Below, piece after piece: positions 3,224 through 45,054 of a DNA stretch of 64,000 nt. This stretch comes from Octopus sinensis. Lineage: Eukaryota. Within the stretch, counting starts at the first letter, position 1; the number at the start of each line of letters is the position of its first letter. Made by a program: the position numbers and the translations under genes. The stretch is taken from assembly GCF_006345805.1 (NCBI RefSeq), contig NC_042997.1:106020001-106084000 (forward strand). Reading direction: 5' to 3'. The notes under the pieces are model-generated. The model had not been told where the DNA came from and did no database searches. It saw nothing but the letters and a program-made list of their open reading frames with translations.

Positions 3224-4090
3224 TATTCATATGATGACCGCCCCCTCGTTATCGAGTATGGCCATTGCACGAAGCTTAACTGTTACTGGTGCTGTGATCG
3301 AGAGTGACTTTTTAGCCCAGCTAAAGATCTACAATGTCTTGTACAGAATTGGCAACTAAAACCTTTACCGGTAATAGCCAGCTGTAGTTGCAACTGGGCT
3401 TCATATACCTTTGCATGTCGTTTAAGTCCTCCTGCCGAATTACACTCTCTTCCACATGTCCGACAGATATAATTCGTATGGTGTCTAACACCACCACCAA
3501 TGGCCATGTTGTCACTCATCTGTCTCGCTTTATGACTACGAAGATGACTCCTGAGTCCAGCTTTACTGAGGTAGGGTCTTGCACAGACACTGCATGTCAG
3601 CATCATAGGAAGACCCTTCCCATCTAGCAGTGTAACAGCGATGCCCTTCCTGACATCCCTCCTTACTTTCTCATGTGCAACTCGAGATTTCTCAAAAGTG
3701 GATGTCCCCTCGTGCACAATCCTTCTCCACCTGCTACGATCAATAGCTATGCCTTTCCATGTGTCAGGAAAGATGCAAGTATATCTTAAGGAAGCCTTCA
3801 GCAAGTCCTTATACCTCTTTTTTAGTTTGTGGAGGTCGTTCTCCTTTAGCTAACTCTCCATAAAAGAGTTGTTTTGGCATCCTTGAATCCTTCACCCTGA
3901 CCAGATGACCACTCCATTTGAACCTTTGCTTTAACACAAGAGCTTCTATACTTTCACACTGAGAGCCTTCCAATATTTCAAGATCACTGATGCGGTCCTT
4001 CCACTTAATGCCATAGATCCGTCTGAGACACATCTGATGGAAATGTTCCAGTTCTTTAACATACATAATGCATATATCATTTAGCTTTCT
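3224..4090 (-). mobile_element. 5'-truncated RTE-clade LINE: post-RT region, three C2H2 zinc fingers and short 3' UTR (frameshifted)
   Basis: ORF 3809..4180 gives LEHFHQMCLRRIYGIKWKDRIS...WSGHLVRVKDSRMPKQLFYGEL (RTE signature). After a frameshift, ORF 3283..3804 gives DRSRWR and fingers CSVC..H..H, CRTC..H..Y, CQFC..H..H. 3' hairpin CTCG-ATAA-CGAG. Confidence 0.92.
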
Positions 4091-4374
4091 GATCCAATGA
4101 TTTGTGTGTCTCGAGTTTAAGGACGGTATGAGATGTCCTTGAGCAAGATACTTCATTTCACGTTGCTTCAGTCTACTCACTGTAATTCAGATGCAGCCTG
4201 TTTCCTTCCCTTCTATATGTCTATGTGTGCGTGTTATGATGTCGTACCATCAGCTGGAGATTTTGATGGTATCAGGGATTTCTTCAAATCCCGTTTTAAT
4301 GCATATGATTCTACTTTTGCGTTTATATCTCTTGTATCTGTACGAAGTAAGGTGTAAAAAAGTACGGTCTAAGT

Positions 4375-5076
4375 CAGTGGTTTTCAACCAGTATCCTGGA
4401 GTTCCATGTAAGAATTTGGGGGGGGGGTCCACCCAAAGAAAATAGTAAAGTGGGGATCCGCAGTGATATTTTTAGAGTCCATTAAAAATTTTTGATTTAA
4501 ATGTGTTTATTGCAAAGAAACAGCTAAATTTCTTTCTCTAGCGTCTTACATAATTCAGCCTACACAAGTTAATGTGTGACTAACAAAATAGGAATTTTAA
4601 AAGAAGTGTCTATATGCCCCTTATGTTATAGAGCAGTTACTGTTTATATCTCGTTTAGAGATTTATTATTGCTTTCGAACGGTTTTTCTACACCAGTAAA
4701 TGTGTTTACTGTGAAAACCCTTAAATATAGCCTGTACGGAGAGTTATTCGTCGGAGAAAGGGGTGCTTACCATGCGTTGATAATAGGCAAATACCTTGAA
4801 ACCTGGTCCGTATGTAGCATCCGCTTCTTCGGGGAATGACCTCCGAGAACACCGAGATGGTGTCAGCCCTCTTGGTGACGTTGTTGATCGCCTGGGGCTA
4901 AATGCATCAGTAACACCCCCACCGCCCTGCCCTGTCCCTAGCCACATTCAGATGGCTAATGCCCCTTATGTTAGGTCTATAAAATTAGTTTTTACACAAT
5001 GAATGACTATGGGAGCCCACCAGAACAGAATTGTAATCAAAGGAATCTGTAGATAAAAAATGGTTGAGAACTTCTG
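4375..5076. mobile_element. hAT/Charlie-type non-autonomous DNA transposon carrying an internal ~330-bp insert
   Basis: Imperfect TIRs CAGTGGTTTTCAACC (4375) / GGTTGAGAACTTCTG (5062-5076); flanking 8-mers GTCTAAGT / GTTTAGGT resemble a degenerate hAT TSD. Confidence 0.65.
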
Positions 5077-40969: not shown

Positions 40970-41016
<47 letters not shown>

Positions 41017-41059
41017 AAACAAGTAAAAATAGAAAATGCTAAAATAATTTTATAGTGAA

Positions 41060-41107
41060 CATTTCAGTACCGGTTTCGGTCATTTTGAGACCTTTTCAAC
41101 TGTAACG
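41060..41107 (-). ncRNA. Minimal type I hammerhead ribozyme (U3-A8 core variant)
   Basis: Minus: CGUU-A-CAG UUGAAAA GGUC-UCAAAAU-GACC GAAA CCGG UA CUG-A-AAUG; helix I and helix II pair, with a palindromic helix III region. Confidence 0.72.
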
Positions 41108-41451
41108 ATTAAATAATTAAATTTAGAAAAATTAGAAGAAAAGTTTTTTTAAAAGAATATTTCTATAGTAGTGTTCAATTTAAGTGGCATTCTGCTGCCT
41201 TTCTCTGACTCCCTTGTTGCACTTGTGTGTTCGAGGTAGTTGTGAGCTCTTGGTAGGGTAGTAGAGAGAAGGCTGGTGAGGAAGGGGGTGGGAGAATCTG
41301 GGAGTGCCCTGATGGTCGTATTTTGAATGGTCAGTGGCGGCTGGCAGTCTCAGTTCAATTCAGGAGAATATTTATATTGAACAGCTTCTTTATAGAATTA
41401 GCGTAGGTGTTATACTAAAAAACATTAGTGACGAACTAAGGGGTAGGGGGT

Positions 41452-41700
41452 GGAGAAGAAGAAGAAGAAGAAGAAGAAGAAGGAGAAGGAGAAGGAGAAG
41501 ATGACGATGATGGTGATGGTGGTGATGATTATGACGACGATGATGATGATAACGATGATGATGAAGAAGAAGAAGAAGAAGAAGGAGGAGAAGGAGAAGA
41601 TGTGTGTGATGATGGTGGCGATGATGATGATGCCGATGATGATGATAACGATGATGATGAGAAGAAGAGGAGAAAAGAAGAAGAAAAAACAGAGAAGGGA
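41452..41700. repeat. (GAA)/(GAT) trinucleotide array inside the PLE 3' region
   Basis: Direct reading; source of the K/M-rich ORF 41450..41830. Confidence 0.93.
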
Positions 41701-42111
41701 GAATATGAATGTAAATATAGCTATGAAGGGGCTGATTAGTATATGGATTCTATTGAGTGTAGTATTTGTGTGTGTATATATATTTTTTTCTTTTATTCTA
41801 AGGTTGAGGTATATTAATTGTTTGTCGTAGACCCGTTAAGAAGTGGCTTGTATTTTGTAATAAAGAGATTTTCTTTACTTATTCGTGTCTCGAGGTTGTA
41901 TCGTCCCTAAATAAATGGTAGGGGAAAAATTCTGAAGTTTGGTGTTTTTTGTTGGCGCAAGTATCTATGTGTTGGCTAAAAGCTATTTTTCTGTTTTGGG
42001 AATTTTTATCTGGGATCTGTGCAGGGCCATTCGTTTACGCAAACCATTTTTTGTTTGGCCTATGTACTGCTCTTGACACCCGGAGCAGTTAGTGAGTATA
42101 TTACTTTTCAC

Positions 42112-42146
<35 letters not shown>

Positions 42147-42148
<2 letters not shown>

Positions 42149-45054
42149 AATAAAAGAGAACATATGCATTATATAAAACATATATGTACGTACCTACCTC
42201 TACATGTACATATACACGCATATATGTGTACAGGACACCAAAAAGACGTCGAACACATAGAGAGACGAAACACATAGACACACCAAGGAACAAGACAAGC
42301 AAAAAAAAGAGAGAGATACAGGACAATAAGCACAACGAAAAATCCCCTTCTTCAGTCGCTAAGGTTCATCTACTAACCGTTTCGAAGGATAAAAGCGAGA
42401 CGTATACTTCGAAGAAAACTTCCTTCCCGCGAAAAGCAAATCAATTAAAATTCTGAGATCTTTTCGCAGAGGGGTAAAAAAAAAGCAAGACGGTAACGAC
42501 AGTACAAACATATAAACAGTAAAAATATATATATAAACAGTGGAAAAATAAATATATAACAGTGAGAGACAGGACAAGGAGAACAAGATAAGAAGGGCTG
42601 TTAACGCCAGACGAAAAAGTATTGCAAACGCTGGTTTATCGTGGACGACGAGAGAGAGAAAATGTGTCGACCAGTGACCTTACAAGGGGGGCGAGAAAGA
42701 CAGGATAGCAGTTACGACGGAAGTATCGTCGCAGATGGACGACGGGAATGGGGGAGGAGAGCAAGAGGAAGAGAGAGAAGAAGGGGAATGGTGCGAGGAG
42801 ACCATGAATAATGGTGAAAGGGAGAGAGAGAATGAAGAATGAGAGAGAGAGGAGAGACAAGTTAAGTGAGGGGAAAAAAACGAAAAAGGGAATGGGAGAG
42901 AAAGAAAGAAATGCAGAGTCGCGTGAGAGTTAATATCAAGGCTAACTTGATAAACAGAACAATCTTACTTAATAAGGTGCGTGGCGTTTAGTCGTATAAT
43001 ATGTTAATAAATAGAACATATGCATATATATAAACATATATGTACGTACCTACCTCTACATGTACATATACACGCATATATGTGTACAGGACACCAAAAA
43101 GACGTCGAACACATAGAGAGACGAACACATAGACACAAACCAAGGACAAGACAAGCAAAAAAAAGAGAGAGATACAGGACAATAAGCACAACGACAAATC
43201 CCCTTCTTCAGTCGCTAAGGTTTCATCTACTAAACGTTTCGAAGGATAAAAGCGAGACGTATACTTCGAAGAAAACTTCCTTCCCGCGAAAAGCAAATCA
43301 ATTAAAATTCTGAGATCTTTTCGCAGAGGGTTAAAAAAAGCAAGACGGTAACGACAGTACAAACATATAAACAGTAAAAATATATATATAAACAGTGGAA
43401 AAATAAATATATAACAGAGAGAGACAGGACAAGGAGAACAAGATAAGAGGGCTGTTAACGCCAGACGAAAAAGTATTGCAAACGCTGGATTATCGTGGAC
43501 GACGAGAGAGAGAAAATGTGTCGACCATTGGCCTTACAAGGCGGGCGAGAAAGACAGGATAGCAGTTACGACGGAAGTATCGTCGCAGATGGACGACGGG
43601 AATGGGGAGAGGAGCAGAGGAAAAGAGAGAAGAAGGGGAATGGTGCGAGGAGACCATGAAGAATGGTGAAAGGGAGAGAGAGAATGAAGAATGAGAGAGA
43701 GAGGAAGAGACAAGTTAAGTGAGGGGAAAAAAAGACGAGAAAGGGAATGGGAGAGAAAGAAAGAAAGATGCAGAGTCGCGTGAGAGTTAATATCAAGGCT
43801 AACTTGATAAACAGAACAATCTTACTTAATAGGGTGCGTGCGTTTAGTCGTATAATATGTTATAAAATAGAACATATGCATATATATAAACATATATGTA
43901 CGTACCTACCTCTACATGTACATATACACGCATATATGTGTACAGGACACCAAAAATACGTCGAACACATAGAGAGACGAAACACATAGACACAAACCAG
44001 GAACAAGACAACAAAAAAAAGAGAGAGATACAGGACAATAAGCACAACGAAAAATCCCCTTCTTCAGTCGCTAAGGGTTCATCTACTAAACGTTTCGAGG
44101 ATAAAAGCGAGACGTATACTTCGAAGAAAACTTCCTTCCCGCGAAAAGCAAATCAATTAAAATCTGAGATCTTTTCGCAGAGGGGTAAAAAAAAGAACGG
44201 TAACGACAGTACAAACATATAACAGTAAAAATATATATAGAAACAGTGGAAAAATAAATATATAACAGTGAGAGACAGGACAAGGAGAACAAGATAAGAA
44301 GGGCTTTAACGCCAGACGAAAAAGTATTGCAAACGCTGATTATCGTGGACGACGAGAGAGAGAAAATGTGTCGACCAGTGGCCTTACAAGGCGGGCGAGA
44401 AAGACAGGATAGCAGTTACGACGGAAGTATCGTCGCAGATGGACGACGGGAATGGGGGAGGAGGAGCAAGAGGAAGAGAGAGAAGAAGGGGAATGGTGCG
44501 AGGAGACCATGAAGAATGGTGAAGGGAGAGAGAGAATGAAGAATGAGAGAGAGAGGAAGAGACAAGTTAAGTGAGGGGAAAAAAAAGACGAAAAAGGGAA
44601 TGGGAGAGAAAGAAAGAAGATGCAGAGTCGCGTGAGAGTTAATATCAGGCTAACTTGATAAACAGAACAATCTTACTTAATAAGGTGCGTGCGTTAGTCG
44701 TATAATATGTTAATAAAATAGAAAATATGCATATATATAAACATATATGTACGTACCTACCTCTACATGTACATATACACGCATATATGTGTACAGGACA
44801 CCAAAAATACGTCGAACACATAGAGAGACGAAACACATAGACACAAACAAGGAACAAGACAAGCAAAAAAAAGAGAGAGATACAGGACAATAAGCACAAC
44901 GAAAAATCCCCTTCTTCAGTCCGCTAAGTTTCATCTACTAAACGTTTCGAAGGATAAAAGCGAGACGTATACTTCGAAAAAACTTCCTTCCTGCGAAAAG
45001 CAAATCAATTAAAATTCTGAGATCTTTTCGCAGAGGGGTTAAAAAAAAAAGCAA
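42147..45054. repeat. Tandem array, ~855-bp unit x ~3.4 copies (probably PLE pseudo-LTR-derived)
   Basis: Landmark TTCTTCAGTC recurs with its CAG at 42353, 43209, 44065 and 44917 (spacing 856/856/852); copies differ mainly by 1-bp indels. Confidence 0.96.

What the first reader, a model, noticed from the sequence alone, without database searches (positions are those of the whole stretch)
41060..41107. Penelope-associated hammerhead ribozyme with a compensatory U3-A8 core
Seen (minus strand): helix I CGUU-a-CAG / CUG-a-AAUG, core UUGAAAA, helix II GGUC / GACC with a 7-nt loop, GAAA, palindromic ACCGGU, and a predicted GUA cleavage between 41068 and 41067. It lies ~720 nt downstream of a CCHH-type GIY-YIG remnant on the same strand. 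Known: PLE pseudo-LTRs carry minimal hammerheads thought to act as dimers via a palindromic helix III, and C3-G8 is a Watson-Crick tertiary pair that tolerates U3-A8. Inference: the double change preserves the pair, suggesting selection for function. CUGANGA-based searches would miss this variant, so a whole family may be uncatalogued.
Basis: partly seen in the sequence, partly recalled or inferred. Interest (0 to 1): 0.75.

Follow-up and report, generated by a model that had tools for sequence, protein, structure and literature searches.

The report
Penelope hammerhead with U-A core pair
A small hammerhead-shaped RNA motif, predicted to cut its own RNA, ends a young Penelope-type jumping gene with over 1,600 identical copies; its swapped U-A core pair is real and the commonest form in this genome but was described in 2014, and truncated copies that break at the predicted cut site suggest it likely cuts in living cells.

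Summary
The motif is present as described (41107-41060, minus strand) and is not a decayed copy: 1,617 exact U3-A8 copies, none with C3-G8, in a young Neptune/Nematis-like Penelope family (4.4-kb unit). With one pattern, U3-A8 cores (8,713) outnumber C3-G8 (1,309), U3·G8 (690) and C3·A8 (267) genome-wide. Among relatives found through their reverse transcriptase, 24 of 24 loci with a motif keep a Watson-Crick 3-8 pair, in all four forms, so selection on the pair is supported. The variant is not new: Cervera and De la Peña (2014) reported U3-A8 Penelope hammerheads in Schistosoma and built a descriptor for them, and this scan noted such cores earlier on other DNA, including this genome. One copy joins another family's hammerhead 5' half to this family's 3' half at the cut. 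Cleavage and dimer use are untested. New member of a known kind.

The parts
41060..41107 (-). Type I minimal hammerhead: bulged helix I, core U3-U4-G5-A6-A7-A8-A9, 4-bp helix II with 7-nt loop, GAAA, palindromic helix III, A17
   Evidence: 1,617 exact copies of its central 41 nt
41094..41099 (-). U3 (41099) and A8 (41094): the swapped tertiary core pair
   Evidence: covariation
41067..41068 (-). Predicted cleavage site after A17 (GUA triplet)
   Evidence: hammerhead convention; six genomic junctions exactly here
41005..41067 (-). Tail from the cut to the +64 end point, running into (TA)n; one of two fixed 3' end points (+64, +98)
   Evidence: (28 ends at +64, 17 at +98, 2 running on, 1 other, of 48)
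41005..42103 (-). 5'-truncated copy of the Penelope-like family (unit positions 3348-4404 plus 64), 96% identical to the tandem unit in L032
41817..42104 (-). Frameshifted C-terminal GIY-YIG endonuclease remnant with the CCHH motif
   Evidence: intact relative L032 has RVT_1 (E 1e-7) and GIY-YIG (E 3e-4, just below cut-off)
42104..42118 (+). 15-nt inverted stub ending at the +98 end point: the second arm of the insertion
   Evidence: read by eye from the sequence printed against the tail
40972..41012 (.). (TA)n target microsatellite, 3' side
42115..42145 (.). (TA)n target microsatellite, 5' side

Best explanation
The motif is the hammerhead of the 3' pseudo-LTR of a young, (TA)n-targeting Penelope-like retrotransposon, carries a U3-A8 core pair shared by its whole lineage in this genome, and likely cuts a minority of the element's transcripts after A17, probably as a dimer through its palindromic helix III. 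Shown: location, copy number, family state, covariation, fixed end points. Inferred: reverse transcription starts inside the RNA at +64 or +98 downstream of the cut and usually reads through an uncut hammerhead (so most copies keep it intact); on a cut RNA it runs off at +1 and leaves the short arms that start at or just after the cut. The U-A pair likely arose once in the ancestor of families F1, F2 and F6 by two transitions and is kept because it preserves the tertiary pair.
For: 1,617 exact copies, 0 canonical in-family. Same-pattern counts U-A 8,713, C-G 1,309, U·G 690, C·A 267, controls 199, 144, 196, 136; background-subtracted odds ratio about 153 (copies are not independent events). Of 80 loci found by protein alone, 24 had a motif under a scanner free at positions 3, 7, 8: 19 C-G, 3 U-A, 1 A-U, 1 G-C, no mismatch. 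The U3 families of G000 form one clade (SH-aLRT 100) whose nearest relatives with a motif are C-G. Helix I, not constrained by the pattern, pairs in 104 of 120 cells across 24 representatives against 55.5 +/- 7.0 after shuffling partners; helix III is palindromic in 19 of 24 and in 92 of the first 100 listed U-A matches (my count). Six of 7 independent loci with a base other than A before +1 are junctions exactly at the cut. Junction events: 11 at +2..+11, 0 at -4..-9, 4 at -10..-30; P 0.002, worst case 0.02. Internal initiation at two sites and protein-assisted cleavage are shown for the anole element (PMC11167929).
Against: No cleavage was observed; no raw RNA reads were on offer. U·G subfamilies and a small C·A subfamily have multiplied. 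Junction numbers are small, 16 of the 46 rows and all 12 were classed from the matched string only, and the filter efficiencies (0.7, 0.45) are my estimates. The anole study found cleavage dispensable for insertion in vitro and no RNA ends at the site. Cervera and De la Peña found only low activity even for dimers. Most copies run through the hammerhead uncut.
Confidence: 0.7

Rival explanations
1. The fold is kept as a structural or protein-binding signal next to the reverse-transcription start, with little or no cutting; the breakpoints come from the polymerase stalling at the 3' strand of helix I (+1 to +8).
For: Most downstream junctions lie at +2..+11 and not at +1. Mismatched cores spread. 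Related families keep only 1-2 bp of helix II. Catalytic mutants do not affect insertion in vitro (PMC11167929).
Against: The peak is exactly at +1 (6 events against about 1.6 per position, P 0.006); the 3-8 pair, which matters for the active fold, is Watson-Crick in 24 of 24 protein-anchored loci; one chimera joins two families at their cut sites.
Confidence: 0.22
2. U3-A8 is a by-product of AT-biased mutation in one successful lineage; its dominance reflects amplification of that lineage and no selection on the pair.
For: Both changes are C-to-T / G-to-A transitions in a genome of about 36% GC; the protein-coding U-A families of G000 form a single clade, so thousands of copies may stand for one event.
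Against: U-A appears on three further, separate branches and A-U and G-C on two more, always paired; within the 360-bp repeats the pair changes again between sister subfamilies.
Confidence: 0.07
3. The family state is canonical and this copy decayed.
For: None found.
Against: 1,617 exact U3-A8 copies and 0 C3-G8 in the family.
Confidence: 0.01

Closest known systems
Minimal hammerheads of metazoan Penelope-like elements, including the U3-A8 variant of Schistosoma mansoni Cercyon elements (Cervera and De la Peña 2014, PMC4209133; read parts 1-2 of 4: results, discussion, start of methods)
   Same: Type I topology in the pseudo-LTR, G10.1-C11.1, small palindromic helix III, U3-A8 in place of C3-G8, mostly single truncated copies, head-to-head pairs.
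   Different: 4-bp helix II (7-8 bp in the Schistosoma families), no unpaired base between 9 and 10.1, 2-nt palindromic insert in helix III, near-identical copies; U-A is the majority core here, a minority there (about 1,300 against 2,000).
Poseidon element of Anolis carolinensis, PAc (Frangieh et al. 2024, PMC11167929; read parts 1-2 of 4: main text)
   Same: Two fixed end points downstream of the hammerhead, 34 nt apart here (30-40-bp tail there); AT-rich targets; copies run through the uncut motif.
   Different: PAc has C3-G8 and no zinc-finger linker clade; that study found no RNA ends at the cut, whereas this family shows DNA junctions there.
Neptune/Nematis-type C-terminal-endonuclease Penelope-like elements (Craig et al. 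2021, PMC8557442; 12 passages read)
   Same: RT followed by CX4CXXC linker and GIY-YIG with CCHH; pseudo-LTRs, tandem and inverted insertions; microsatellite targets.
   Different: An upstream frame of about 400 codons overlaps the RT frame instead of a single ORF; clade not placed against reference elements.
Metazoan non-LTR retrozymes (PMC7229834, 6 passages; bioRxiv 10.64898/2026.07.22.740005, abstract and results part 1 of 2)
   Same: The ~360-bp non-coding tandem families in G000 that share the U3-A8 core resemble them.
   Different: The motif in the window belongs to a protein-coding element, not to a retrozyme.

Membership tests
Penelope-associated minimal type I hammerhead | Core boxes N3-UGA-N-N8-A, GAAA, UH with Watson-Crick 3-8 pair | tested here: met
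   (U3-A8)
Penelope-associated minimal type I hammerhead | Helices I and II with G10.1-C11.1 and compensatory change across families | tested here: met
   (104 of 120 helix I cells paired; shuffled 55.5 +/- 7.0)
Penelope-associated minimal type I hammerhead | Palindromic 15.2-16.2 / loop 3 | tested here: met
   19 of 24 representatives; 92 of first 100 listed
Penelope-associated minimal type I hammerhead | Unpaired base between positions 9 and 10.1 (usual in the 2014 consensus) | tested here: not met
   A9 is followed directly by G10.1; a common but not core feature
Penelope-associated minimal type I hammerhead | Location in the pseudo-LTR of a Penelope-like element | tested here: met
   one per 4,404-bp unit, between endonuclease stop and next unit
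Penelope-associated minimal type I hammerhead | Self-cleavage, mainly as dimer or protein-assisted | not testable with these tools
   indirect junction footprint only
Canonical EN+ Penelope-like element (Neptune/Nematis type) | RT followed by C-terminal GIY-YIG with CCHH | tested here: met
Canonical EN+ Penelope-like element (Neptune/Nematis type) | CX2-5CxxC linker before the GIY-YIG | tested here: met
   (CX4CXXC read in the L032 translation); feature from PMC8557442
Canonical EN+ Penelope-like element (Neptune/Nematis type) | Tandem and inverted insertions, 30-40-bp tail, microsatellite bias | tested here: met
Canonical EN+ Penelope-like element (Neptune/Nematis type) | Single ORF | tested here: not met
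   an upstream frame overlaps the RT frame in three families; RT and endonuclease do share one frame
Canonical EN+ Penelope-like element (Neptune/Nematis type) | Phylogenetic placement with reference Neptune or Nematis elements | not tested
   no named reference elements were in the tree

The most novel reading that the evidence does not exclude
Truncation points of this family are a genomic record of hammerhead cleavage in the germ line, with a U3-A8 core that has become the majority form in this animal lineage, and hammerheads of different families can exchange halves (5' product of a retrozyme-type RNA joined to the 3' product of the autonomous element) before reverse transcription. This would make the open question of what Penelope hammerheads do in vivo testable from genomes alone.
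Probability: 0.4. Interest if true: 0.62.

Novelty: new member of a known kind. Interest (0 to 1): 0.38.

Why it matters
The core variant itself is in print, so the finding does not change what is known of hammerhead chemistry. It matters modestly in two ways. A CUGANGA-only pattern sees under a seventh as many motifs of this architecture here as the U3-A8 pattern, so censuses with the canonical core can miss the majority in some animals. And the role of Penelope hammerheads is stated to be unclear (PMC8557442), with no RNA ends found in the one element studied biochemically (PMC11167929); a young family with 1,600 identical copies, intact reading frames and breakpoints at the cut offers a direct test.

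Tried and rejected
Rfam scan: only a sub-threshold HH9 match. Folding z-score: no support by itself. Decay of a canonical family: rejected. Sequencing runs: no RNA holder listed on record, all 24 rows are contigs; laying them cannot show ends or expression and showed no pile-up of loose ends at the cut among the rows displayed, which is no evidence either way. The minimum-energy dimer is not the double-hammerhead fold; only the 6-bp palindrome duplex energy (-8.3 kcal/mol) was taken from it. The protein tree is the quick one; the careful search did not finish. One search used 12 downstream junction events; a recount gave 11 and one search replaces those figures. Lünse et al. 2017 (PMC5785218), Przybilski and Hammann 2007 (PMC1986816) and Nelson and Uhlenbeck 2008 (PMC2151028) are not held, so measured rates of U3-A8 hammerheads are recalled only as tolerated and not cited; these papers and unseen supplements of PMC4209133 and PMC8557442 may already list such motifs from this animal group. 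Paper searches for U3-A8 (4 papers, one relevant), octopus with hammerhead or Penelope (20 of 79 listed; PMC13282606 has no mention of ribozymes), truncation at the cleavage site (2 papers, listing only) and frameshifting in Penelope elements (12 of 1,069 listed, none with both) found no report of the junction footprint; this is weak evidence of absence.

Full report
Observation. U3 is at 41099, A8 at 41094, A17 at 41068, so the conventional cut is between 41068 and 41067; helix II pairs with probability 0.97 and helix I with 0.65-0.84. A descriptor accepting any Watson-Crick 3-8 pair found only this hit in the window. Stability alone is ordinary (z -0.75) and Rfam gives a sub-threshold HH9 match (E 0.42).

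The element. The motif lies in a 5'-truncated copy at 42103-41005, between two (TA)n tracts, 96% identical to a 4,404-bp tandem unit elsewhere in G000. [quoted passage not shown] The few named homologues of the protein are from bivalves or their symbiont assemblies, 42-47% identical. Copies end at +64 or +98 from the cut (28 and 17 of 48 distinct ends), and in the 7 head-to-head pairs mapped with both ends (L006, L008, L010, L024, L034-L036) one arm ends at each. The window copy fits: a +64 arm and a 15-nt inverted stub ending at +98 (42104-42118, read by eye). This is the tail signature explained by two internal initiation sites in the anole element (PMC11167929). It also means that most templates were uncut at this hammerhead.

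Is U3-A8 the family state? Yes: 1,617 exact copies of the central 41 nt, control 0, and none with the canonical core in the same context. With one pattern differing only at positions 3 and 8, G000 holds 8,713 U-A, 1,309 C-G, 690 U·G and 267 C·A matches, with reversed-pattern controls of 199, 144, 196 and 136. These are copies, not events. They fall into several families: protein-coding F1 (this one), F2 (66% protein identity) and F6 (52-58%, helix II of only 2 bp), and ~360-bp non-coding tandem repeats resembling retrozymes.

Is the pair selected? The non-circular test is. Of 80 metagenome loci found by protein alone, 24 had a motif under a scanner free at positions 3, 7 and 8; 19 are C-G, 3 U-A, 1 A-U, 1 G-C, none mismatched (two of the C-G loci are one family; 56 loci gave no hit, many being short contigs). 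Of 30 loci of G000 found with an outside protein, 15 gave a hit, all U-A; of the other 15, eleven belong to a family whose core reads C3-C4...G8 by eye, one has lost the region, and three are U-A by eye with damage elsewhere. In a quick tree of 37 segments the U3 families of G000 form one clade (SH-aLRT 100), their nearest relatives with a motif are C-G, and three other U-A cores sit on separate branches. Helix I, which the pattern did not constrain, pairs in 104 of 120 cells over 24 representatives against 55.5 +/- 7.0 for shuffled partners. Against strict need: U·G subfamilies and a small C·A subfamily have multiplied, and U·G groups are nested within U-A groups in both trees.

Does it cut? 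Following a lead from note e1-8643110, I searched for copies with a base other than A before +1: 9 matches, 7 independent loci, of which 6 are junctions exactly at the cut and one is a 1-nt insertion. Two position-blind searches gave the background. One search (46 matches; 26 indel or substitution variants dropped; 30 inspected as loci) gave 11 junction events at +2..+11, 2 at +1, 5 at -1..-3 (which chance matches to T, TA can shift from +1) and none at -4..-9. One search (12 matches; 8 indel variants dropped) gave 4 at -10..-30. With estimated filter efficiencies this is 1.6 per position downstream against 0.3 upstream (P 0.002; 0.02 if the five ambiguous events are counted upstream), and 6 at +1 against 1.6 expected (P 0.006). 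This is what run-off at the 5' end of a cleaved RNA would leave, but stalling at the 3' strand of helix I could give the downstream part, and the numbers are small. One locus (L223 = L251) has both arms starting at +1 behind a stretch that is 82-86% identical to the 5' half of a hammerhead from the 360-bp families and ends in that family's cleavage triplet: a single case, explicable by ligation of two cleavage products or by template switching between similar motifs. No raw RNA reads were available.

Mechanism. Shown: anatomy, family state, covariation, end points, junction pattern. Inferred: transcription of tandem units, binding by the element's protein, nicking of (TA)n, internal initiation at +64 and +98, read-through of mostly uncut RNA, and cleavage of a minority, probably as a dimer through the palindrome (duplex -8.3 kcal/mol; a 2-nt loop cannot close in a monomer) or helped by protein as in the anole element. 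Confidence 0.7.

What is known. Cervera and De la Peña reported U3-A8 in Schistosoma Cercyon hammerheads, built a descriptor for it and found about 1,300 hits; minimal motifs cleaved weakly and only as dimers or with a mimicked helix III (PMC4209133). A review gives the same dimer model (PMC6765202 passages). Three primary papers on core exchanges and small variants were not held. This scan has noted U3-A8 and other 3-8 swaps before: 85 findings in at least 21 genomes, one in this genome; these are unchecked notes and were used as leads only.

Verdict. Real, well supported, and a new member of a known kind. The added value is the majority status of the variant here and a modest genomic footprint of cleavage. 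Interest 0.38.

Noticed in passing
L195-L208, L212-L216, L189/L190/L193 (G000 Penelope families, 46-58% protein identity): An upstream frame (open for up to about 400 codons in the best copies) overlaps the RT-endonuclease frame at a conserved run of six or seven T followed by A; in F1 it is in phase for a -1 ribosomal frameshift, gag-pol style. Seen in 12 of 19 loci tested; not found by my test in F2 or two metagenome relatives. A splice acceptor is an alternative in F1 and F6. Canonical Penelope elements are described as single-ORF.
   Followed up: partly
L223 / L251 (G000:C15:10706264-10706401): Chimeric palindrome: 5' half of a retrozyme-type hammerhead joined to this family's 3' half at the cut site, in both arms.
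   Followed up: partly
L187-L194, L197, L202, L210 (G000): Young Penelope family with intact frames whose hammerhead-like core reads C3-C4-G5-A6-A7-G8-A9 (U4 replaced by C), by eye.
   Followed up: no
L071-L073, L099, L101 (G000): Very abundant U3-A8 motifs with helix II of only 1-2 bp (most of the 2,196 matches, judged from the first 100 listed).
   Followed up: partly
L069, L070, L074-L076, L078-L081, L084-L086, L090-L096 (G000): ~360-bp non-coding tandem or head-to-head repeats, retrozyme-like, whose sister subfamilies carry C-G, C·A, U-A and U·G cores.
   Followed up: partly
L140 and L141 (metagenome contigs): Penelope-associated hammerheads with A3-U8 and G3-C8 cores.
   Followed up: no
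window 42151-45054: About 3.4 tandem copies of an ~856-bp unit, 96% alike, directly beside the insertion.
   Followed up: no
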